37,317 nucleotides of DNA, from assembly GCA_963840855.1 (NCBI GenBank), contig CAWJBB010000057.1, forward strand, positions 1-37,317, in the 5' to 3' direction. This stretch comes from an uncultured delta proteobacterium. GTDB taxonomy: Bacteria; Desulfobacterota; Binatia; UBA9968. Of this stretch, positions 18,761 to 31,799 are shown piece by piece (position 1 is the stretch's first letter; each line of letters begins with the position of its first letter). A model generated the notes under the pieces. It was not told the DNA's origin. It saw only the letters and a list, made by a program, of their open reading frames with translations, and did not search any database. A program made the translations under genes and the position numbers.

Positions 18761-19600
18761 ATGAAAACAATACGGTTGCTGATCGCGGTTGCGTTGTTAG
18801 CGCTCTCCGGATGCGCTGGATACGAATCGGCCGGCGAATTTACCCGGGGGCGGCTAGCGCTCGTGCGCGGCGATCCCAACGGTGCCCTGGGTAATTTCCA
18901 AAGCGTCGCCAACGCCGAGCCGCAATTCGTCGCGCGCAATGGACCGCTGTGGGAAAGCATTTGGACCTACATTGGGCGCGCGCACTACCAATCCGGAAAA
19001 TACCCCGAGGCGAAGGATGCCCTGGAAAAAGGGCTGGCTCAGCAAAAAGGCGACCACATGGGCCGGCTTTATCTCGGGTTGACTCTGGCGCGGCTGCCGG
19101 TTGCGCCGGCGAAAAGCACGGGGTTCTCGGTGCAGGACATCGTCTTCGCTTTGGGTGAAGGCATCGAATCCGAGCGGGTCGCGGCCTTGGCGCGCGAGCG
19201 CGGCGTCGCGTTCGATCTGTCTAGAGAAGCGGAGGGCCAGCTCAAAAAAGCCGGCGCCGACGCGCGGCTATTGGACGAAATCAAGAAGATCCGCGCTGAG
19301 ACCGCGGGCAAAAGCGAAACCCAAACCGCCCGCGCCGCAAAGGAGCTTGCCGTGGCCCTCGCCGGACTGCGCGACGATTTGGACACCTTCCTCGCCAACT
19401 CGCTACAAGGCAGATTCTGGGACCCTGGAGGAGAGTTGCGAAAAGAAATTCGCAACGGCATCGCGCTGCTTTCGGCGCGCGATCAGGACTGGAAGAAAAT
19501 TATTGCCAATGGCGAATGGCTCGGTGAAAATCTCGAAGAAGAAATCGATAAGGCGCGCGAAGATGAATCGAAGGATACCCGGCGCGATCGGTTCCGCTAG
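18761..19600 (+). CDS. TPR lipoprotein with an inserted small helical domain
   Basis: Lipobox LSG-C (Cys18); TPR WTYIGRAHYQSGKYPEAKDALEKGL; central SVQDIVFALGEGIESERV...GVAFDLS...LKKAGADARLLDEI segment. Confidence 0.82.
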   Translation: MKTIRLLIAVALLALSGCAGYESAGEFTRGRLALVRGDPNGALGNFQSVANAEPQFVARNGPLWESIWTYIGRAHYQSGKYPEAKDALEKGLAQQKGDHMGRLYLGLTLARLPVAPAKSTGFSVQDIVFALGEGIESERVAALARERGVAFDLSREAEGQLKKAGADARLLDEIKKIRAETAGKSETQTARAAKELAVALAGLRDDLDTFLANSLQGRFWDPGGELRKEIRNGIALLSARDQDWKKIIANGEWLGENLEEEIDKAREDESKDTRRDRFR

Positions 19601-19715: not shown

Positions 19716-21296
19716 TCACGGCGAGCAATCGAGCCCCCGATTACCCAATTTTCTTTCCGCGATGCAAGCCCGCCTTGTCTGTTCGAACTCCGCGCCAATT
19801 TCCTGGCTGCTGGGATAGGCAGCCCGCCCCGTCGCCAACTCGGCCATGGCCGCCCTGTAGTCCCCCTGCGCGCGAAAGTTTTTCGCCCGCTTTATGTAAG
19901 GCGCGACCCTGGCCCGTAGCTGTTCCCCGCTCAGTTCAGGCGCTATTGGCCGCGCTTCCGGAGTTTTTGATACCATGGCTTCGGGGGCCGTTTTGCCCGG
20001 TAGATATTCAGTGCTTCTCCGTTGCCGTGGTTTCACGGCAACTTTCGACTGCGGCTCTTTGACGATAAGACGCAGGGGTGCGCTGGTCACGTCGCCGGAC
20101 CGGGCTACGACTTCGGCGTTGCCCGCCCGCCACGCTTCCACTTCGCCCCTGGCATTGACGGATACGACGGCGGCATTATTGCTCGCCAAGACCCATCCGC
20201 TGGAAAGAGTTTTCTCGGTGCCGTCGGAATACTTGCCCGTTACGTTGAGCACGATACTTTCCAGCGGCTCCAGTTCTTTTTTATAAGCGTCTATGGTCAA
20301 CGCTATTAACGCCGGCGCCGGTTTCGACGGCAAGGATTTTACCGCGAGGGTCCAGGCGGAGCTGGAAACCCCGTCGTAGGTAGCGGTGATTTCTGTCGTG
20401 CCCGATTGCAGCGCTGTGACCCGGCCCTCGGCGTCGACCTTGGCCACCCGAGCATTGCTGCTCGACCACTTGATGGCGGTCGTGATTTCGTCTTCCGATC
20501 CGTCGGAAAACCGGCCTCGAAGAGAAAGGGCCAACGTTTCCTCGGGCTTGAGCTCTTGGCGCGCGGCATAGATCCCGAGCTTTAGGACTTTCGGCGCCGG
20601 AACCGGTTCCGCAGTGGATCGCATTGGAACGGGCGCCACCGCCGTGACCGCTTCGTCAGTCACCGGTGCCGAGTCCCGCCACAGCGCAATTACTCCGATC
20701 GCCAAAACAAGCGCAACGCCAGCGCCAGCAATGATCTTCCATGGCACCGCGTTCTTTCCTGACGAATCGCGCTGGGTTCGGATTTCGTGTTCGGCTCTCC
20801 GCTCCGCTCTTTCGACTCCAGTAATTATTACTTCAGTTCGAGTCTGGTTGGCATTCTGTCCGGGCGGAGTTCTTGGCTTGGACTCAAACGTACCAGGCCG
20901 CGCCGGTTTGCCGATAAGCAATTCGATATCGGCGATTAGCTGGCGCGCCCCGAGAGACTCACCTACTCCATCCCAATCAGTTAAGTCCGCAGCCTGGATG
21001 GTGCGAAAACCGACCGGCGGATTGACCGTCTCGATCAGCACCGGCAAGAGCTTCCTACGCATCCGCCCCTCCTCCGCTTCTTCCTTGACCCAATCGCTTT
21101 CAATAGAATGAGACGACCACAAAACCACCATGCAGCGCATGTCGCGCAGCGCCGTTTCGAGCATCCTGCGCCAGGTGCGGCCCGCAGGAATGCGCCGGTC
21201 CCACCAGACCGTCCATCCGGCCTTGACGAGCAGCCTTGACAACCGGCGCGCCACGTCGCGGTCCTCTTTCGCGTAACTCAAGAAAATATCAGCCAT
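19716..21296 (-). CDS. TIR domain membrane protein with two Ig-like (Big_2) domains and a C-terminal TPR-like helix pair
   Basis: TIR_2 at aa 1-128 (DIFLSYAKED, VWWDRRI, SDWVKEE). TM at aa 186-206. Ig-like repeats at aa ~237-320 and ~330-413 (FSDGS..WSSSNARVAKVDAEGRVTALQSGTTEITATY; YSDGT..SNNAAVVSVNARGEVEAWRAGNAEVVA). Confidence 0.88.
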   Translation of the reverse strand: MADIFLSYAKEDRDVARRLSRLLVKAGWTVWWDRRIPAGRTWRRMLETALRDMRCMVVLWSSHSIESDWVKEEAEEGRMRRKLLPVLIETVNPPVGFRTIQAADLTDWDGVGESLGARQLIADIELLIGKPARPGTFESKPRTPPGQNANQTRTEVIITGVERAERRAEHEIRTQRDSSGKNAVPWKIIAGAGVALVLAIGVIALWRDSAPVTDEAVTAVAPVPMRSTAEPVPAPKVLKLGIYAARQELKPEETLALSLRGRFSDGSEDEITTAIKWSSSNARVAKVDAEGRVTALQSGTTEITATYDGVSSSAWTLAVKSLPSKPAPALIALTIDAYKKELEPLESIVLNVTGKYSDGTEKTLSSGWVLASNNAAVVSVNARGEVEAWRAGNAEVVARSGDVTSAPLRLIVKEPQSKVAVKPRQRRSTEYLPGKTAPEAMVSKTPEARPIAPELSGEQLRARVAPYIKRAKNFRAQGDYRAAMAELATGRAAYPSSQEIGAEFEQTRRACIAERKLGNRGLDCSP

Positions 21297-23160: not shown

Positions 23161-25521
23161 TTAACCGCTGTCCACCGGCAGGGAAAAATAAAAAGTCGTC
23201 CCCTTGTCCTCTGCGCTCTCGACCCAAATCTTGCCGCGGTGGGCCTCGACGATCATCTTGCAGATGGCTAGGCCGAGGCCGGTTCCCTTCTCAGCGTATT
23301 CTGTTCCGCTTTTAGTTTGATGATATTTCTCGAAGATCCAGGACAGCTCTGCCCGGAAATCCCGACACCACTGTCTTTGACCCAAGCTATAATATTCCCA
23401 TCAACTGCTGACAGCCAACCGAAATTTCACCGCCGGCGCCGGTGAACTTGAGCGCGTTGCTAAGCAGATTGGATATAACCTGTTTCAATCGCCGCCGCGT
23501 CGGCCCTGATTTTCGGCAATGGCTGAGAGGATGCGTTTTTCAGCTGAAATATTTTTCTCCCGCGACCAGAGAAAATACATTGTTAAGGCAATTCTGTACC
23601 AACTGGCCCAGAGTCTATCTCCTTCTTGACGAGATGGACGCGCCCCGCTTCCAAGTGGGAAACGTCCAAGAAGTCGTTGACAATTTGCACCATATGCTTG
23701 GCGTTGTCTTGTATTTTGCCGAGCCACTTCTTTTGTTCGTCGTAATGGACCTCACCCGCCGCATTCTCTCGCAGCAACCCCGCAACTCCGGCAACAGCCA
23801 TGAGAGGGGAACGGAGATCGTGGACAATCATCGCGCTGAAATCCGCCCGGTCTAGGTTGGCTCGTGCCAGCTCTCCCGTGCGTTCCTTCACGAGCCGCTC
23901 TATCATCGCGGTGCGACCCGAGACGACAAGAGAAACGCTCCCAAGACGCCAGTGAAAAGCAGCCCGCCGAAAAGCACGCTCCATACCTGCCATGAGCGTT
24001 GCAGGGCGAAAAATTCCACCGTTTGGATAAACTGCAACACGCCAGCGCCGGTCAGCCACTAAGACCGTGCTGGTTTTTCGTAGCGACGCGAAGTCGGGCC
24101 TGGCTTCCTTAACGCGCTGGCGGAATAGCGTTGAATTAATTTTGAATTCTTATCATCGTCCCAGATCTCCAATTGAACGCCCGGCTCGCGAACCAGCTCC
24201 ACGGACGTAGCCATCAAGTCAGGAACGCGAAACGCTCCACCGACGTAACCGGAAATGATTCCGACGCCGCGCCTCGACGGTGTCATGTGGCGACCCCGGC
24301 CGGTAAACCGGCAGGAATGCAACGACACCCCATTGGTCTTGCGTTTCTCCCAGCAACTTGATCGGAGTGGCCGCTCCGGGCCGAGTCTTCGTCGCGTGCT
24401 CGGCGTAGTCCCTCGGCTATCAGCGGGTTTGCGGCCAAGTCAAAACCTAACGCAAATCGGTTTTCTTTGTACGGGGCCAACGAAGTAGACCGGCGCATAA
24501 TGTTTCGCGGGGTTCGGCTCGCACGAGTCGTCCCTGTGGATCGACTTCGCGAATTTCGAAATCTTCGTAACTCCCGCGCCGGGCGGCTTCTTCAAAGTTC
24601 CTGCGCTCTTGATGGGTTATTATCGGATTCCAGCTCAACCTTTGAATACCGGAAAACGCGATCCATTAAATCTGTTGCATAGACTTCGAATTCCTGCTCG
24701 CGTGACCTGGTCGGAAGCCGCATAAAACTTGATAGAGAGTGGAGGGTCTCCACAGACTCATCGATTTTGTCCTGCAAAATACGCGTCAAGTTATCAGCGC
24801 GCCGCTCGAACTCGGCCTTGATGCGCTGGTCTTCGCGGTCATTTGCATAAACAAAAAGGAGACGACTGTAATCAGCGGCACGTGCAAAGCGGAACGATGA
24901 CCTGGCTTGCGACGCGTTACCCAAAGCTCGCGCGGCTGGGCGAGCCAAACCAAGAGTACCGGCGTCACGCAGACGACACCGAGAGCATCGCCGACCCACC
25001 AGGTAATCCAGTTAACAGGAGCGCTGCGCGAACTCGATGACGCCCGCAGACAATAGGCTCGCAACTCCCCAGGTCGCACTAATCAAGCATGCTGCGGGTC
25101 CCGCCAAGAGCAGAAACAAAACAACCTCACGCTCCTGAGCCAGCGGGTTTGGAAACCCGGCATAACGGCGTACTAGAAACGCTCCTGCCAAAGCTTGCGC
25201 CGTGGCGCCGAGACTCAACACTGGTGCCCAGAAGGATCAGCGGTAAGCTTGAATTGGGCACCGTGCCATGCGGTCTCGATCCCGAGGTTGACGCAAGATC
25301 ACGATCCAATTAGGATACGCCGGCCAGACGCGATACCCGTAGAGGAGAATTCCAACGAGGGCGATACCTGCCGGCGGCCACACCGGGGCGGTATAACCGG
25401 GTGGAATGGCGAGCAGCATAGAGAGCTTGCCGGCGCCATAGTAAGCGGCGGCAAGCGCGAGAATTCTTACAACAGAACGATAGGGATTTCGGAGGAACAG
25501 TTCTCTAAGATGTTTGAGCAT
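23161..25521 (-). pseudogene. MASE1-CHASE sensor histidine kinase broken by roughly ten frameshifts
   Basis: Fragments in collinear order: MASE1 (AIPPGYTAPVWPPAGIAL; WITWWVGDALGV), CHASE (EFERRAD..VETLHSL; ALGFDLAANP), HisKA (IVHDLRSPL), N-box (QVISNLLSNALKFT near 23440-23485), G-box ([24 protein letters not shown]). Confidence 0.8.
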
Positions 25522-28221: not shown

Positions 28222-28839
28222 TTAGTTCGCGGATTTGAGATCAGCTACCAGCGCGGTGAGGATTTCTTCCAACGCTTGACTCCAGCCTCGCACCAACGCC
28301 TCCGGCGACCGGCGGCTTACATCGACGGTTCTTGCGTAACTTTTTTCCAGGACGATCTGTGATCTTCCGTCCGCCTCTTTAGTCAAGAAAAACTCCATCT
28401 CCAAAACCGCCTTGGGCGCGCTGCCGTTGCGAAAATCCCCGTACAAGCCGCTGACAGCGGCCTGCAAGACATGGGTCGGTTGCAGCTGATTCGACGAGCC
28501 GATGACATGCCGGAACACCTGCGACTGAGCCAAACCCTTGCGCAGCTCCTCGGTAATAAGCGCCGCCGGCGCCACCAAGAACTGGTTATAGAAGTCGGAC
28601 TCGTAGCGCGCGTCCGACGTGCGGTAGACGAAACTTTTTTCTGTGTATCGAGGCGATATCTGCACGTCGGCAACCTCCACGACGCCGTTTCCTGACGTCG
28701 TGGGCGGGTTCACGTTGCGCTTCACCTCGATCACGAAAAAGTGCTGATCGGGATAGCCCCTCTCGAAGCTGACGCAACCGGAGCAAAAAACGAGCAGAGC
28801 CGCTAAGGCATGCGAGCCAATGATGAAACCCGCGTTCAT
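28222..28839 (-). CDS. ABC-type transport auxiliary lipoprotein (PqiC-like)
   Basis: Lipobox CSG-C; FVYRTSD..YESDFYNQFLVAP; last gene of the mla-like operon, overlapping the upstream stop. Confidence 0.82.
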   Translation of the reverse strand: MNAGFIIGSHALAALLVFCSGCVSFERGYPDQHFFVIEVKRNVNPPTTSGNGVVEVADVQISPRYTEKSFVYRTSDARYESDFYNQFLVAPAALITEELRKGLAQSQVFRHVIGSSNQLQPTHVLQAAVSGLYGDFRNGSAPKAVLEMEFFLTKEADGRSQIVLEKSYARTVDVSRRSPEALVRGWSQALEEILTALVADLKSAN

Positions 28840-29882
28840 CGTTCCATGACCTTTGACGGCGGCGGTGGCGCTCCGAACAAGACTTGAGACGGATACTTCC
28901 GAGAATTGTCAGTGATCTCTTTAATATTCTCGGAAACCGCGCGCAGGTTTTGCACCGTCTTCTCGATGTCCCGCTGTTGGCCGGCAAGCAAGCGATTGAG
29001 CCGCACCAGCGTTTGCCTGAGCTGCACGCCCGTTTCCGGTAGATCCGCCGCCACTAAATCCAAGCGCTGGACCAAGCGATTGATGCCTTCGGATGTTTTT
29101 GGCAGCTCGGCCACTAGCTGCGTCAGCGGCTTATCGACGCGCTCGAGAATCTGTCGCGCCGTACCGGCGGCCGCTGCTGTGTCCTGCACGGCATGTTTGA
29201 GGTCAGATCCGACGAGATCTTTCACTTGCCGATTGGTTTCCCTCATTTCGGTGAGCAGAATGTAGGTCTCCCGACCTATCTTTTCGAGATTGGCGCCCTC
29301 AGCCACCTTCATAAGCGTGCTCAAAGATTTTTCGATGCCTTGGCTCAGCTTCTGGAGGTTGATCTCCTCTATATTCCGCAGAATGCGTTCCACGGCCTCG
29401 GCCAATTGCGTGATGCGGCTTTGCCCCGATGGCACGTAGGGATAAATCGGCTCCCAATCGATCGCCAGGGCCGGGTGGCGCGCGGGATCGAGGTAGTCTA
29501 CCTCGAGATAGGCCGTGCCTGTGAGGCCCTGGGCCGCCAATCGCACGCGCAGCCCCTTGCTGATCTCCGCGGCGAAGCCCGGGCCGCTCGCGTCGGGCAG
29601 GGCATCCTGGAACATGGTCGAGGTCAAACCCGCGCGCACCAGCACGTAACGGCGGCGCGTGGAATATTCCGCGCTCGTGAGGGTGATTTGCTCGACTTTT
29701 CCCACCAGCACGCCGCGAAACTTTACCGCGGACCCAACGTCCAAACCCTGCACGGATTCGTCGATATAAGTTTCAATAATGACTTTTTTCTGGAGCAAGG
29801 TGCCGACACCGAGCACGACGACGCCGATCACGCCGATCACCGTAGCGCTGATGACGAATAAGCCGATTTTGAAATAACTCAA
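28836..29882 (-). CDS. MlaD/MCE family protein
   Basis: N-terminal TM, ESVQGLDVGSAVKFRGVLVGKV MCE motif, GLTGTAYLE, coiled-coil C-terminus ending PSQVLFG. Confidence 0.9.
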   Translation of the reverse strand: MSYFKIGLFVISATVIGVIGVVVLGVGTLLQKKVIIETYIDESVQGLDVGSAVKFRGVLVGKVEQITLTSAEYSTRRRYVLVRAGLTSTMFQDALPDASGPGFAAEISKGLRVRLAAQGLTGTAYLEVDYLDPARHPALAIDWEPIYPYVPSGQSRITQLAEAVERILRNIEEINLQKLSQGIEKSLSTLMKVAEGANLEKIGRETYILLTEMRETNRQVKDLVGSDLKHAVQDTAAAAGTARQILERVDKPLTQLVAELPKTSEGINRLVQRLDLVAADLPETGVQLRQTLVRLNRLLAGQQRDIEKTVQNLRAVSENIKEITDNSRKYPSQVLFGAPPPPSKVMER

Positions 29883-29906
29883 CTTCCCGCCCTGATTACG
29901 CGAACG

Positions 29907-30680
29907 TTACCCGGCCTTGCCGTCGTCCGCTAGCCGCAAAAAAAATTGCCGCACCACGGGATCCTCGCTGTGGTCGCGCAATTCCCGCGGGCTTCCCATG
30001 GCGACGATGCCTTTCCTTTTTTTATCCAACATAATCACGCGATCCGCAATCGCGAAAATGCTCGGCAGCTCGTGGGTCACCACGACGAAGGTGATTTTTA
30101 AGCTTCGCGCGAGGCTGAGAACCAAATGGTCCAGCTCCACCGAGGTGACCGGGTCGAGTCCCGCCGACAACTCATCCAGAAACAAAAGTTGCGGATCCAG
30201 GGCCATGGCCCGCGCGATGGCGCCGCGCTTCTGCATGCCGCCGCTAAGCTCCGCCGGCATACGGTCACCGACGCCACCGAGACCGACCCGTTGCAGTTTC
30301 ATCTGCGCGATCAAGCGAATTGCTTCCGGCGGCAGGTCGGTGAATTCCTCGAGCGCCAGCGCGACATTCTCCAAGAGCGTCATGGAACCGAACAATGCGC
30401 CGCTCTGGTACATGACGCCTAATTTTCTCAGGATGCGCAGCCGCGCCTCGCCCTGGGCCGCCGCAATATCTTCGCCGTCGATGAGAATCCTGCCGGCCGC
30501 GGGTTTGTAGAGCCCAATCATATGCTTGAGCAAGGTGCTCTTGCCGGAGCCGGAACCGCCGAGGATAGCAAACACTTCTCCCGCGTAGACTTCGAAGTTG
30601 AGACGGTCCAACACCACTTGACCGTCATAAGCGGCGGTGAAATCTTCCACCTGGATGATCGTTTCGCGCTCCGCAGACAT
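29907..30680 (-). CDS. MlaF-type ABC ATP-binding protein
   Basis: Walker A GGSGSGKS, YQSGALFGSMT, LSGGMQKR, LFLDE and VVVTHE motifs. Confidence 0.93.
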   Translation of the reverse strand: MSAERETIIQVEDFTAAYDGQVVLDRLNFEVYAGEVFAILGGSGSGKSTLLKHMIGLYKPAAGRILIDGEDIAAAQGEARLRILRKLGVMYQSGALFGSMTLLENVALALEEFTDLPPEAIRLIAQMKLQRVGLGGVGDRMPAELSGGMQKRGAIARAMALDPQLLFLDELSAGLDPVTSVELDHLVLSLARSLKITFVVVTHELPSIFAIADRVIMLDKKRKGIVAMGSPRELRDHSEDPVVRQFFLRLADDGKAG

Positions 30681-30686
30681 GGCCGT

Positions 30687-31799
30687 TCAAACCCCTAGAT
30701 AGTAGTATACCACCGAAAAAATGCCGTCGGTGATGGCGATGAGAATAATTCCGCTAACGACGGCGCTGGTGGTCGATTCTCCCACCGCGGTGGCGCCGGT
30801 GCCGGTATGTAAGCCGCGCAGGCAACCGATGGCGGCGACGAGAATGCCGAACACGAAAGCCTTGAGCAATCCGCCGAGCAGCGATCCATAGGTCACGGCA
30901 TACTGGATCTGGTTAAAATAGGTTATCAAGGGAAAGCCCAGTGACAGCATCACCACTGCGCCGCCGATCAGGCCCAATAGATCCGCGAAAATCGTCAACA
31001 GCGGCGTCATCGCGACGGCGGCGACGACCCGCGTAACGACGAGAAAGCGCACCGGATCGAGGCCCATGGTTTTCAGCGCGTCGATTTCTTCGCGGACCTT
31101 CATCGTGCCCAACTCCGCGGCAAAAGCCGAGCCAGAGCGCCCCGCGAGGATGATCGCGGTCATCAGCGGCCCCAATTCGCGCAGCATCGACAGCGCGATG
31201 AGATTGGCCACGAATAATTCCGCGCCGAACTGGCGCAGCGGCACCGCGGCTTGAAATGCCATGATGAGGCCCATAAGAAAGCTGACCAGCGCCACGATCG
31301 GCAACGCGTTGACGCCGGCGGACTCCGCCACGCGCAGCGCGTCGCGCCAGCGCACGCCGCGCGGATGAAGCGCGGCATGGGCCAGCGCCACCGTGAGTTC
31401 GCCAACGAAGCTGATCAACGTGCGCGTGTCGCGCCAGACGTCCACCACCGCAGCGCCGACTTCTTCGGCAAGACCGGCGTGTTGCGGCTCGGCTTCCGTC
31501 AAGCGCGCCAAATCGCCGGGGTCCCAGGCCTCCAACAATTGTTGAAACTCCGGGCGCAGGCCGCGGATTTCGAAATGGCCGTCCGCCTTCTGGCGCTGGT
31601 TGCGCAACTGAACTAAGAGGGCGATCCCCGAACCATCGCAGTATTCGACGCGTGAAGCGTCGAGCACAACGCTCCCCGCGCCGCCAACCAGCTCCGTCGC
31701 CCTACGCCAAATCTTTCCGGTGTTGGCGGAGTCCAACCGTCCTTCGATGGCGAAGGCCACCAGGCCGTCGCGGGTTTCTTGAACGCGCAGGTTAATCAT
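30687..31799 (-). CDS. MlaE-family permease with an N-terminal STAS domain
   Basis: STAS (LDASRVEYCDGSGIALL), plus LRELGPLMTAIILAGRSGSAFAAELGTMKVREEIDAL and VGESTTSAVV. Confidence 0.93.
   Translation of the reverse strand: MINLRVQETRDGLVAFAIEGRLDSANTGKIWRRATELVGGAGSVVLDASRVEYCDGSGIALLVQLRNQRQKADGHFEIRGLRPEFQQLLEAWDPGDLARLTEAEPQHAGLAEEVGAAVVDVWRDTRTLISFVGELTVALAHAALHPRGVRWRDALRVAESAGVNALPIVALVSFLMGLIMAFQAAVPLRQFGAELFVANLIALSMLRELGPLMTAIILAGRSGSAFAAELGTMKVREEIDALKTMGLDPVRFLVVTRVVAAVAMTPLLTIFADLLGLIGGAVVMLSLGFPLITYFNQIQYAVTYGSLLGGLLKAFVFGILVAAIGCLRGLHTGTGATAVGESTTSAVVSGIILIAITDGIFSVVYYYLGV

What the first reader, a model, noticed from the sequence alone, without database searches (positions are those of the whole stretch)
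19716..21296. Receptor-like TIR-TM-(Ig)2 protein: a bacterial analogue of the IL-1R domain combination
Seen: an N-terminal TIR domain retaining WxxxE (W69-E73), a ~55-aa linker, a single TM helix (aa 186-206), two tandem Big_2-like Ig domains, and a short TPR-like C-terminus with Cys511/Cys524. Established: TIR domains with this Glu can cleave NAD+ or make nucleotide signals when oligomerised (Thoeris ThsB, SARM1, plant TIRs), and animal IL-1 receptors pair extracellular Ig domains with a cytoplasmic TIR. Inference: this is an N-in/C-out receptor (topology inverted relative to IL-1R). Its periplasmic Ig pair may sense a ligand such as a phage, predator or envelope-damage signal and cluster the TIR. 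No ThsA-type effector is nearby, so the TIR would act alone or in trans.
Basis: partly seen in the sequence, partly recalled or inferred. Interest (0 to 1): 0.78.

Follow-up and report, generated by a model that had tools for sequence, protein, structure and literature searches.

The report
Membrane TIR receptor with periplasmic stalk
A conserved gene of uncultured Binatia bacteria encodes a membrane-spanning protein with an apparently NAD-cleaving TIR domain inside the cell and an Ig-domain stalk outside, a receptor-like layout that I could not find described for bacterial TIR proteins.

Summary
Window 19716-21296 (-) encodes a 526-aa protein with six parts:
- an N-terminal TIR_2 domain (E 2e-25) with an intact WxxxE;
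- a disordered linker;
- one TM helix (aa 186-206);
- two Big_2 Ig domains;
- a second disordered linker;
- a three-helix TPR-like tip with two invariant cysteines.

The AlphaFold model and Foldseek hits (LigA, AbTIR) agree.

New context:
- The gene is not in a defence island. It is a single-copy, vertically inherited gene in a conserved block of Binatia genomes, always convergent with a TPR lipoprotein (19 of 20 loci).
- The TIR head is far more conserved (76%) than the ectodomain (about 50%).
- Close relatives lack Ig2 exactly, so the Ig domains look like a stalk rather than a fixed ligand-binding pair.
- The same ectodomain occurs on a CHAT protease head in Binatia.
- The same TIR head occurs on FGE-sulfatase, OmpA, PAN, TPR and other modules behind one TM helix in other phyla.

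Best reading: an N-in/C-out receptor that couples a periplasmic or envelope cue to cytoplasmic TIR NADase activity. Enzymatic activity, topology, ligand and biological role are all untested. I found no paper describing this architecture.

The parts
19716..21296 (-). Whole gene: TIR-TM-Big_2-Big_2-TPR-like protein, 526 aa plus stop
   Evidence: ORF list and translation. More than 100 full-length homologues at 42-98% identity.
20898..21296 (-). Cytoplasmic TIR domain, aa 1-133
   Evidence: Pfam TIR_2 E 2.1e-25. Best PDB sequence matches are AbTIR and PdTIR. Foldseek hit 7uxu_A, TM-score normalised to the target 0.73. Block-mean pLDDT 67-93, mostly 85-93. Mean identity 76% across 100 homologues.
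21078..21092 (-). WxxxE motif, W69-E73 (putative catalytic Glu E73)
   Evidence: Aligned to the W and E of the AbTIR WxxxE motif. AbTIR E208A is inactive (passages of bioRxiv 10.1101/2023.05.19.541320). Invariant in 101 of 101 family members. In non-Binatia relatives, E is kept in 39 of 40 and W in 38 of 40.
20742..20897 (-). Disordered cytoplasmic juxtamembrane linker, aa 134-185
   Evidence: pLDDT below 50 over aa 135-183. 15% mean identity.
20679..20741 (-). Single transmembrane helix, aa 186-206
   Evidence: Kyte-Doolittle maximum 2.57. Helix 186-206 in the model. A segment scoring at least 1.6 is present in 101 of 101 homologues.
20340..20588 (-). Big_2 Ig-like domain 1, aa 237-319 (predicted periplasmic)
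   Evidence: Pfam Big_2. Beta-sandwich with pLDDT about 96. Foldseek hits to LigA/LigB, S-layer proteins and intimin. Retained in all variants.
20061..20309 (-). Big_2 Ig-like domain 2, aa 330-412 (predicted periplasmic; dispensable in close relatives)
   Evidence: Second Big_2 stretch. pLDDT about 94. Absent as a clean in-frame gap in P0007, P0011, P0015, P0026 and L002.
19929..20060 (-). Disordered, Pro-rich linker, aa 413-456
   Evidence: pLDDT below 50 over aa 420-451. 19% identity, 31% gaps.
19719..19928 (-). C-terminal three-helix TPR-like domain with invariant C511 and C524
   Evidence: Helices 457-476, 480-493 and 498-516, pLDDT 94-97. Weak TPR hits. Exactly two ectodomain Cys in 100 of 101 homologues. 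The same domain, with both Cys aligned, is present in the CHAT-headed P0254. No solved homologue by sequence.
18761..19600 (+). Convergent neighbour: TPR lipoprotein (279 aa, lipobox LSGC), candidate periplasmic partner
   Evidence: TPR_2 E 5.7e-7. A homologue lies directly downstream and convergent in 19 of 20 orthologous loci. All 17 neighbour ORFs examined show a Cys-containing signal-peptide end, 13 by the strict lipobox pattern. Pairwise distances correlate with those of the TIR protein, r = 0.90 over 13 loci. Complex prediction gives weak support only.

Best explanation
This is a single-pass inner-membrane receptor of a Binatia (Binatota) bacterium with N-in/C-out topology.

Layout:
- Cytoplasmic side: an AbTIR-like TIR domain that looks enzymatically competent, joined to the membrane by a flexible 50-residue linker.
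- Periplasmic side: a flexible stalk of one or two Big_2 Ig domains, ending in a small TPR-like domain that is probably locked by a C511-C524 disulfide.

Proposed mechanism (all steps inferred):
1. The distal tip, possibly together with the conserved neighbouring TPR lipoprotein, reports an extracytoplasmic state. That state could be a bound ligand, or loss or distortion of an envelope contact.
2. This changes how the protein is spaced or clustered in the membrane, or exposes the linkers to proteolysis.
3. The TIR heads then self-associate. In solved bacterial, plant and SARM1 TIRs, self-association is what forms the active site.
4. The assembled heads cleave NAD+, either depleting it or producing an ADPR-derived signal that acts in trans.

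Shown here: the architecture, its conservation, the synteny, the modular swapping of heads and ectodomains, and the retention of catalytic residues.

Inferred: the topology, the disulfide, the enzymatic activity, the activation step and the biological role. I judge the role more likely to be an envelope-linked stress or cell-fate decision in a core pathway than a mobile anti-phage gene.
For: Architecture and fold.

Catalytic competence:
- The best PDB sequence matches are the NADases AbTIR (E 6.2e-7) and PdTIR, with W69/E73 on their WxxxE motif.
- AbTIR E208A is inactive (passages).
- E73 is invariant in 101 of 101 family members and kept in 39 of 40 relatives outside Binatia.

Topology:
- There is one TM in 101 of 101 members, and exactly two ectodomain Cys in 100 of 101.
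- Fold matches are to extracytoplasmic surface proteins.
- Relatives carry OmpA, PAN, FGE-sulfatase, PEGA or CarboxypepD_reg modules after the TM.
- The Mla genes in the window fit a diderm envelope.

Receptor-effector modularity:
- P0254 has a CHAT head, a TM and the same ectodomain (36% identity, E 8e-49, both Cys aligned).
- 12 CHAT+Big_2 clusters were listed.
- The CHAT head is fused to the same range of C-terminal modules as the TIR head.
- In the TIR-head tree, FGE-type ectodomains need 3 changes, while the 21 Big_2-type heads form one group with support 98/89.

Core-gene status:
- Conserved flanks across the 20 loci compared: lipoprotein 19, FAD_binding_2 17, DUF309 13, Mo-oxidoreductase 13, Mfd 12.
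- There is one locus in each of 22 MAGs.
- Distances track the flanks: r = 0.71 with FAD (0 of 2000 permutations as high) and r = 0.94 with Mfd (6 loci, 14 of 2000).
- The TIR is 76% conserved against about 50% for the ectodomain.

Lipoprotein link:
- Adjacency survives a nearby rearrangement of the amidohydrolase gene.
- r = 0.90 with the TIR protein.
- The lipoprotein is absent from the 58 other loci.
- Complex prediction: weak support. Score 0.45, best of 3 controls 0.00. The mark was reached by 58 of 80 solved complexes and 2 of 110 mismatched pairs. At 0.60 or under, it was reached by only 7 of those 80 and by both mismatches that passed. The runs agree in at least 70% of contacts, and the partner's pLDDT is at least 80. 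My own alignments were used, so the counts hold only roughly.
Against: - No activity, topology or binding was measured.
- The positive-inside signal is modest. K+R within 15 aa is 3 against 1 in this protein. Across the family the N-side exceeds the C-side in 49 of 101 members, is lower in 17 and ties in the rest.
- The complex score falls in the band that the tool says is more often wrong than right unless the guess was likely beforehand.
- Conserved adjacency could simply reflect conservation of the whole block, and correlated distances are expected for any two vertically inherited genes.
- The TPR assignment of the tip is below the Pfam cut-off in this protein.
- No effector or signal receptor was found in the window, and no neighbour family recurs in 40 non-Binatia loci. 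A signalling (non-depletion) mode therefore has no identified receiver.
- 8 of 40 non-Binatia relatives lack a TM at my threshold. Some are fragments, and two carry WD40 repeats (L051, L052; KD maxima 1.44 and 1.56, just under the cut-off).
- The C511-C524 disulfide could not be checked on coordinates.
Confidence: 0.5

Rival explanations
1. It is a stand-alone anti-phage (or anti-predator) abortive-infection protein. The ectodomain detects phage adsorption, injection or envelope breach, and the TIR then depletes NAD+ and kills or arrests the cell. The mechanism is the same as in the main reading; only the biological role differs (dedicated immunity).
For: - PADLOC hits of the TIR part to defence TIRs: SAVED_TIR 8.2e-12, PDC-S66 6.3e-11, Aga TIR 8.5e-9 and weak ThsB.
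- In E. coli, single-protein TIR systems defend, and one system includes a TM (PMC11350192: passages, section 6).
- TIR and CHAT heads are both classed as cell-suicide effectors in conflict systems (PMC8195603, passages).
- The ectodomain and the lipoprotein evolve about 3 times faster than the flanks (mean p-distance 0.51 and 0.44 against 0.15).
Against: - The gene is not in a defence island; its neighbours are Mfd, oxidoreductases and Mla.
- It is single-copy, syntenic and vertically inherited across 22 MAGs, unlike typical patchy, mobile defence genes.
- The TIR head is under strong constraint (76% identity).
- Only TIR-part matches were found in PADLOC, no complete system.
- NCBIfam Thoeris and retron-TIR models score far below their cut-offs.
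Confidence: 0.2
2. The membrane tether is mainly an inhibitory leash. Regulated proteolysis in the disordered linkers (as with anti-sigma factors) releases the TIR head into the cytoplasm, where it oligomerises and becomes active. The ectodomain serves as the protease-sensitive or partner-protected module rather than as a ligand-induced clustering device.
For: - Three long, poorly conserved disordered linkers flank the TM and the tip (aa 135-183, 208-229 and 420-451).
- For amoeba TirC, removing the TM helix unleashes toxicity, and its authors speculate about proteolytic release (PMC13142454, passages).
- The variable number of Ig domains is tolerated, as expected if exact geometry matters little.
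Against: No protease gene is conserved next to the gene. No cleavage motif was identified. This is pure inference from disorder. It is compatible with the main reading and hard to separate from it by sequence.
Confidence: 0.15
3. The TIR is a non-enzymatic scaffold, as in animal TLR/IL-1R. It recruits a cytoplasmic partner on receptor engagement, or the protein is mainly a structural trans-envelope tether together with the lipoprotein.
For: - Very high conservation extends over loop regions, for example the invariant W31 W32 D33 R34 ... P37 A38 G39 and P94 G96 F97 R98 Q101. This could reflect a conserved protein partner.
- The stalk plus linkers look long enough to cross a periplasm (my estimate, not computed).
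- Weak support for lipoprotein binding.
Against: - The catalytic Glu and the Trp of WxxxE are invariant.
- The closest solved relatives are active NADases.
- The head can be exchanged for a CHAT protease, which argues for an effector rather than an adaptor.
- No conserved cytoplasmic partner gene lies nearby.
Confidence: 0.1

Closest known systems
Bacterial NADase TIR domains (AbTIR of Acinetobacter baumannii, PdTIR of Paracoccus denitrificans)
   Same: The best sequence matches in the PDB (E 6.2e-7 to 3.2e-6) and the best TIR fold match (7uxu_A). The WxxxE motif with the catalytic Glu is aligned.
   Different: The solved constructs are isolated soluble TIR domains (134-184 residues). Here the TIR is the N-terminal head of a single-pass membrane protein with a periplasmic ectodomain. 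This subfamily also has its own invariant motif, P94-x-G-F-R-x-x-Q-x-x-D-L.
Thoeris ThsB and other TIR signalling defence systems
   Same: A TIR of the same superfamily with the catalytic Glu. Weak ThsB_TIR and PADLOC ThsB hits.
   Different: ThsB_TIR scores below its cut-off (19.8 against 21.2). The NCBIfam Thoeris model scores 31.8 against 220. No ThsA-type or other effector gene is adjacent. The gene is not in a defence island. In the TIR-signalling survey passages I read (bioRxiv 10.64898/2025.12.03.692087), TM helices appear in effectors, not in the TIR protein.
Animal IL-1 receptor / Toll-like receptor family
   Same: The same logic of an extracytoplasmic recognition module, one TM helix and a cytoplasmic TIR. 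Ig-fold ectodomain, as in IL-1R.
   Different: - The order is inverted (type II, TIR at the N-terminus).
- The Ig domains are Big_2, not the immunoglobulin superfamily type.
- Pfam TIR PF01582 scores below its cut-off (13.6 against 21.3).
- The TIR is of the catalytic bacterial type rather than the scaffold type.

This is convergent, not homologous, architecture.
CHAT-TM-Big_2-TPR-like proteins of Binatia (e.g. P0254)
   Same: A homologous ectodomain including both terminal Cys (36% identity, E 8e-49). Same single-TM layout and the same bacterial class where named.
   Different: The cytoplasmic head is a caspase-like CHAT protease instead of a TIR, and three segments match the Big_2 region. 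I found no literature on them either.
Prokaryotic metacaspases with TM helices and extracellular receptor domains (Asplund-Samuelsson et al. 2012, PMC3501461)
   Same: A published precedent for a cytoplasmic death-type effector head, a TM and an extracellular sensor domain (the CHASE2 example). FGE-sulfatase, TPR and WD40 are frequent partners (passages).
   Different: That work concerns caspase homologues. In the passages I saw, TIR is mentioned only once, as a linked domain.
Amoeba TirC (TM-tethered TIR NADase of bacterial origin, PMC13142454)
   Same: A TIR NADase held at a membrane by one helix. Removing the helix unleashes toxicity (passages).
   Different: It is eukaryotic, the helix is N-terminal to the TIR, and there is no ectodomain.

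Membership tests
TIR domain, catalytic (NADase-type) bacterial TIR_2 | Pfam TIR_2 match above the gathering score | tested here: met
   90 bits against a cut-off of 28, E 2.1e-25, aa 4-109.
TIR domain, catalytic (NADase-type) bacterial TIR_2 | TIR fold superposable on a solved TIR | tested here: met
   Foldseek hit 7uxu_A (AbTIR): TM-score normalised to the target 0.73, rmsd 2.8 over 137 columns. Block-mean pLDDT of the TIR 67-93, mostly 85-93.
TIR domain, catalytic (NADase-type) bacterial TIR_2 | Catalytic Glu of the WxxxE motif | tested here: met
   W69/E73 align to the W/E of AbTIR. Invariant in 101 of 101 members. The AbTIR E208A phenotype comes from passages.
TIR domain, catalytic (NADase-type) bacterial TIR_2 | NAD+ cleavage activity | not testable with these tools
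   Needs an enzyme assay of wild type against E73A.
Thoeris (ThsB with ThsA-type effector) | ThsB family model above its cut-off | tested here: not met
   Pfam ThsB_TIR 19.8 bits against a cut-off of 21.2. NCBIfam Thoeris_type3_ThcB4 31.8 against 220.
Thoeris (ThsB with ThsA-type effector) | Adjacent effector gene that reads the TIR signal | tested here: not met
   The five neighbouring genes scanned have no effector-type PADLOC hit (only incidental helicase-model hits for Mfd and one weak hit for the FAD protein). Window ORFs carry housekeeping Pfam domains. No neighbour family recurs in 40 related loci. The rest of the genome was not available.
IL-1R / TLR receptor family | Type I order: N-terminal ectodomain, TM, C-terminal TIR (PF01582-type) | tested here: not met
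   The TIR is N-terminal and the ectodomain C-terminal. PF01582 scores 13.6 bits against a cut-off of 21.3.
Big_2 bacterial Ig-like domains | Pfam Big_2 above the cut-off, and an Ig-like beta-sandwich fold | tested here: met
   54.9 bits against 22.8, two stretches. LigA 8gyr E 5.9e-17; LigB 2mog TM-score normalised to the target 0.75.
TPR repeat proteins (C-terminal domain) | A TPR model above the gathering score | tested here: inconclusive
   In the window protein TPR_14 scores 14 bits against 23.5. An orthologue reaches TPR_11 at 27.1 against 26.8 (L018). The model shows three helices. There is no solved homologue; the best PDB hit has E 0.15.
Single-pass N-in/C-out (type II) membrane protein | One TM helix, no cleavable signal peptide, extracytoplasmic C-terminal part | tested here: inconclusive
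   One hydrophobic helix, and the N-terminus is a folded TIR. Indirect support comes from the Cys pair, surface-protein folds and OmpA/PAN relatives. The positive-inside bias is modest. No dedicated topology predictor or experiment was available.
Mobile anti-phage defence gene (defence-island resident) | Patchy distribution, variable context, defence neighbours | tested here: not met
   The syntenic block is conserved across the 20 loci compared. There is one locus per MAG. Distances track the flanks. The Big_2-type heads form one group in the tree.

The most novel reading that the evidence does not exclude
This gene is the best-anchored example of an unrecognised, widespread class of bacterial outside-in death-domain receptors. 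In this class a strongly conserved cytoplasmic effector head (a TIR NADase, or interchangeably a CHAT protease) is wired through one TM helix to exchangeable periplasmic sensor modules: Big_2-TPR, FGE-sulfatase, OmpA, PAN, PEGA and others. In Binatia it would have become a fixed, vertically inherited core pathway that works with an outer-envelope TPR lipoprotein to turn an envelope or extracellular cue into NAD+-derived signalling or cell suicide. That would be a prokaryotic functional counterpart of TLR/IL-1R-type transmembrane TIR signalling.
Probability: 0.35. Interest if true: 0.85.

Novelty: new variant of a known kind. Interest (0 to 1): 0.68.

Why it matters
In the papers I read, bacterial TIR proteins appear as cytoplasmic sensors or effectors of phage defence, or as secreted virulence factors. 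The E. coli TIR survey states that TLR-like features such as transmembrane domains seem absent from bacterial TIR systems (PMC11350192, passage).

A phylum-wide, core-genome, membrane-spanning TIR with a periplasmic ectodomain would show two things. First, extracytoplasmic sensing can be wired directly to TIR chemistry in bacteria. Second, the same sensor chassis can drive either a TIR or a caspase-like head.

It also gives a tractable test case of how membrane geometry controls TIR oligomerisation, since TIR(1-133), E73A and forced dimerisation are all easy to make. And it suggests a role for NAD+-derived signalling in envelope surveillance outside classical defence islands.

Tried and rejected
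- Representative-library search with the whole protein: 43,977 hits, with the listing dominated by giant Big_2 repeat proteins. It was useful only because it surfaced P0254.
- NCBIfam: nothing above any cut-off for the TIR protein, and no hit for the lipoprotein.
- Atlas: the whole protein finds its own 64-member Binatota cluster. The C-terminal half with TIR families excluded gives no usable hit.
- Fold of the lipoprotein: a confident all-helical model, but only generic TPR matches, all with E above 1e-3. No functional lead.
- Search for a neighbour gene family recurring around 40 non-Binatia TIR-TM-X genes: none. The two large clusters are antisense ORFs over the TIR gene itself.
- ECF-sigma-like promoter motif GAAC-N15-18-CGT upstream of the orthologues: 4 of 21 loci, three of them one closely related subclade. 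The window has none, so I rejected it as a general feature. The consensus sigma-70 and terminator scan gave nothing interpretable.
- Rfam on the window: 0 matches.
- First Mantel attempt: it used single HSPs and kept only 7 TIR sequences (one comparison had n = 3). It was superseded.
- CHAT head against all held loci and the window: only one weak hit (L044), so no CHAT paralogue lies in the fetched regions.
- PF26918, a precomputed label on many homologues, is not in the local Pfam copy. It occurs only on Big_2-bearing members of the TIR and CHAT families, so it models some part of the shared ectodomain, but I could not see which part.
- Literature searches found no description of a bacterial TIR-TM-Ig or TIR-TM-periplasmic-sensor protein. 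One search (TIR_2 with Big_2) returned 0 papers. One search (five phrasings of transmembrane or membrane-anchored TIR) returned 18 papers, and none of the 17 listed concerns bacteria. Searches were loose: their min_terms setting allowed hits lacking the key term, and none of the 12 papers listed in each held Binatia/Binatota or 'bacterial Ig-like'. Subscription-only papers and supplements were not searched.
Full report
**What is there**

Window 19716-21296 (minus strand) is a 526-aa ORF.

- Pfam finds TIR_2 at aa 4-109 (E 2.1e-25) and two Big_2 stretches (E 8.3e-15). It finds only a sub-threshold TPR signal at aa 467-500.
- Hydropathy shows one strongly hydrophobic segment, aa 186-206 (maximum 2.57). 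Cysteines occur only at positions 55, 511 and 524, and W69 and E73 are present.
- An AlphaFold2 model on a 101-sequence alignment (mean pLDDT 78.2) gives a confident TIR (1-133), a disordered linker (135-183), a helix (186-206), a second disordered stretch (208-229), two beta-sandwiches (237-319 and 330-412), a third disordered stretch (420-451) and a confident three-helix domain (457-516).
- Foldseek against the PDB matches the tandem sandwiches to Leptospira LigA (E 5.9e-17), S-layer proteins, intimin/invasin and NUP210-type Ig domains. It matches the TIR to AbTIR 7uxu_A (TM-score normalised to the target 0.73, rmsd 2.8).

**Is the TIR catalytic in type?**

- By sequence, the closest solved proteins are the NADases AbTIR (E 6.2e-7, 1.3e-6) and PdTIR (3.2e-6). 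W69 and E73 sit on the W and E of their WxxxE motif.
- Passages of the AbTIR structure paper (bioRxiv 10.1101/2023.05.19.541320) state that E208A abolishes NAD+ hydrolysis, and that W204 and E208 turn inward to bind the substrate analogue.
- E73 and W69 are invariant in 101 of 101 family members.
- ThsB_TIR and PF01582 score below their Pfam cut-offs. NCBIfam Thoeris and retron-TIR models score far below theirs. PADLOC matches only the TIR part.

Activity itself is untested.

**Who has it, and where**

- The homologue search returned 487 proteins at E<=1e-3 among the candidates scored. More than 100 are full length at 42-98% identity. The few named ones are from Candidatus Binatia.
- The Atlas places the query in a 64-member Big_2+TIR_2 cluster whose commonest phylum is Candidatus Binatota. 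It also names PF26182 as Ig_NUP210_5th.
- A genome scan gave 80 loci. 22 are of the full TIR-Ig type, one per MAG. They carry the labels Binatia (9), 'uncultured delta proteobacterium' (7), Thermodesulfobacteriota (2), Deltaproteobacteria (2), Verrucomicrobia (1) and Chloroflexota (1).
- I compared 20 of these 22 with the window's genes, leaving out the fragments L004 and L017.
  - The TPR lipoprotein of window 18761-19600 lies directly downstream and convergent in 19 of 20 loci. The exception, L001, ends inside the TIR gene.
  - FAD_binding_2 lies upstream and divergent in 17 of 20. Two of the three misses have under 700 nt of upstream sequence.
  - DUF309 is present in 13, the Mo-oxidoreductase in 13 and Mfd in 12.
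  - The flanks are 75-97% identical to the window's, so all these MAGs belong to one lineage whatever their labels say.
- The window itself carries housekeeping genes (Mfd, the Mla system, oxidoreductases, radical SAM, an HhH-GPD glycosylase) and no defence genes.

**Inheritance and constraint**

- Pairwise protein distances of the TIR protein track those of FAD_binding_2 (r = 0.71, 13 loci, 0 of 2000 permutations as high) and of Mfd (r = 0.94, 6 loci, 14 of 2000). They track the lipoprotein most tightly (r = 0.90, 13 loci, 0 of 2000).
- Mean p-distances are 0.51 (TIR protein), 0.44 (lipoprotein), 0.15 (FAD) and 0.20 (Mfd).
- Within the protein, mean identity to the query is 76% for the TIR, 51% and 48% for the two Ig domains, 53% for the tip and 15-19% for the linkers.
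- In a maximum-likelihood tree of 64 TIR heads, the 21 Big_2-type rows form one group (support 98/89) nested among other TIR-TM proteins. Rows left out: L017, L042, L059 and L061 (fragments), and 13 of the 18 most distant loci.

This is the pattern of a vertically inherited core gene with a fast-evolving envelope-exposed part. It is not the pattern of a mobile defence gene.

**Topology**

No topology predictor or experiment was available, so N-in/C-out is inferred from the following:
- The N-terminus is a 185-residue folded-plus-disordered region with no signal peptide, and there is one TM helix in 101 of 101 members.
- The fold matches are to surface proteins.
- The only conserved Cys pair lies after the TM, with exactly two ectodomain Cys in 100 of 101 members.
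- TIR needs cytoplasmic NAD+ (established knowledge).
- In relatives that share the TIR head, the module after the TM is OmpA, PAN, FGE-sulfatase, PEGA or CarboxypepD_reg.

The positive-inside bias is only modest.

**Stalk versus sensor**

Relatives 81-86% identical to the query (P0007, P0011, P0015), together with P0026 and L002, lack exactly Ig2 as a clean in-frame gap. The CHAT-headed sister shows three segments matching the Big_2 region. The tip domain with its two Cys is constant. I therefore read the Ig domains as a stalk of variable length, and the tip as the functional end.

**Modularity**

- P0254 (807 aa) has a CHAT domain (aa 103-341), a hydrophobic helix, Big_2 repeats and the same tip. 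P0001 221-524 aligns with P0254 531-807 at 36% identity, E 8e-49, with both Cys aligned.
- Its homologue search listed 12 CHAT+Big_2 clusters, some named Candidatus Binatia. It also showed the CHAT head (about 70-76% identical over about 45% of the query) fused to FGE-sulfatase, TPR, PEGA, CarboxypepD_reg, WD40, SH3 and other modules.
- Conversely, of 40 non-Binatia loci with a closely related TIR head, 32 have a TM at my threshold, 39 of 40 keep the Glu and 38 of 40 keep the Trp.
- 37 of those 40 were scanned with Pfam; the short ORFs of L032, L045 and L060 were among those left out. Their C-terminal modules include FGE-sulfatase (3), TPR (4), alpha/beta-hydrolase (2), CarboxypepD_reg/DUF4493 (2), OmpA, PAN, caspase, pentapeptide with several TM helices, ankyrin and WD40 (2, just under the TM threshold).
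- FGE-type ectodomains need three changes on the TIR-head tree, which indicates shuffling.
- No neighbour gene family recurs around these 40 genes.
- Of the 18 most distant TIR loci, 13 encode soluble proteins without a TM, mostly about 385 aa, and 5 have a TM at about residue 160-210.

**The lipoprotein**

- All 17 neighbour ORFs examined end their signal peptide in a Cys, 13 by my strict lipobox pattern.
- The family has 240 hits and parallels the TIR family.
- It is absent from the 58 other loci.
- Its model is confident and all-helical (pLDDT 87.7), but it matches only generic TPR structures.
- A complex prediction of the ectodomain (aa 230-526) with the mature lipoprotein gave weak support. 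The score was 0.45 and the best of 3 controls 0.00. The mark was reached by 58 of 80 solved complexes and 2 of 110 mismatched pairs. At 0.60 or under, it was reached by only 7 of those 80 and by both mismatches that passed. The runs agree in at least 70% of contacts, and the partner's pLDDT is at least 80. My own alignments were used, so these counts hold only roughly.

I treat the partnership as a hypothesis with odds of roughly 40%.

**Mechanism and comparison**

The best-supported reading is an N-in/C-out receptor that couples a periplasmic or envelope state to oligomerisation, or release, of a catalytic TIR head. The downstream effect would be NAD+ depletion or a diffusible ADPR-derived signal.

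- It works like TLR/IL-1R in logic, but it is not a member of that family. The order is inverted, the Ig domains are Big_2, the TIR is of the bacterial catalytic type and PF01582 scores below its cut-off.
- It is not Thoeris. There is no effector, and the family models score below their cut-offs.
- The nearest published precedent for the layout is among caspase homologues: metacaspase-TM-CHASE2 (PMC3501461, passages).
- The Aravind-lab papers treat TIR/FGS combinations as intracellular conflict systems (PMC8195603, passages).
- The E. coli TIR survey reports one TM-containing system, and remarks that TLR-like TM features seem absent in bacterial TIR systems (PMC11350192: passages, section 6).
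- The TIR divergence survey describes Ig-TM-TIR only for animal receptors (PMC7075850, passages).

My searches found no description of this architecture. Subscription journals and supplements were not covered.

**Limits**

- Only one genome scan was allowed, so three things stayed unchecked: the context of the CHAT paralogues, a full presence/absence census in Binatia, and the rest of this genome (possible trans-acting effectors).

Noticed in passing
window 23161-25100 (-): A MASE1-HisKA-HATPase_c sensor kinase is split over at least three ORFs in different frames: 23161-23385 holds the HATPase_c C-terminal half, 23583-24059 holds HisKA, and 24786-25079 holds a MASE1 piece. In L007, L010, L012, L021 and L072 the two kinase fragments tested (HisKA and HATPase_c) hit closely adjacent stretches, consistent with one gene there. 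This is either a frameshifted pseudogene or assembly errors.
   Followed up: partly
window 18761-19600 (+): A TPR lipoprotein (lipobox LSGC) with a long C-terminal helical region that has no Pfam family. It is restricted, as far as seen, to the same lineage as the TIR-Ig gene and is always convergent with it. Its fold gives only generic TPR matches.
   Followed up: yes
P0254 and P0387-P0397 (not in the window): A sister family in Binatia has a CHAT protease head on the same TM-Big_2-TPR-like ectodomain. The conserved CHAT head is also fused to FGE-sulfatase, PEGA, TPR, WD40, SH3 and other modules. A few proteins carry both CHAT and TIR (P0447, P0461).
   Followed up: partly
L014-L061 (non-Binatia loci): A broad TIR-TM-X class is found in Acidobacteriota, Gemmatimonadota, Pseudomonadota and Chlorobiota, with Clostridia among the more distant loci L074-L076. 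The N-terminal TIR head is highly similar, one TM lies at about aa 145-240, and the C-terminal modules vary. Several members end in a Cys pair (L016, L020, L028, L049, L053, L055, L056).
   Followed up: partly
L006, L013, L042: The orthologous TIR gene is truncated (448, 386 and 103 aa). L006 and L042 are long-contig 'MFD' MAGs. These may be indel errors or real pseudogenes.
   Followed up: no
L022, L024, L042, about 50 nt upstream of the TIR start: An ECF-sigma-like GAAC-N15-CGT motif is conserved in this one subclade only (4 of 21 loci overall, against a shuffled mean of 0.9). It is absent upstream of the window's gene.
   Followed up: yes
L014 (Pyrinomonadaceae MAG), 20-1429: A relative with two TIR_2 stretches before a hydrophobic segment at about aa 299, i.e. 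a tandem-TIR version of the class.
   Followed up: no
window 28222-31799 (-): A complete Mla-type lipid transport cluster: STAS-MlaE fusion, ABC ATPase, MlaD and an ABC_trans_aux lipoprotein. It indicates a diderm envelope.
   Followed up: no
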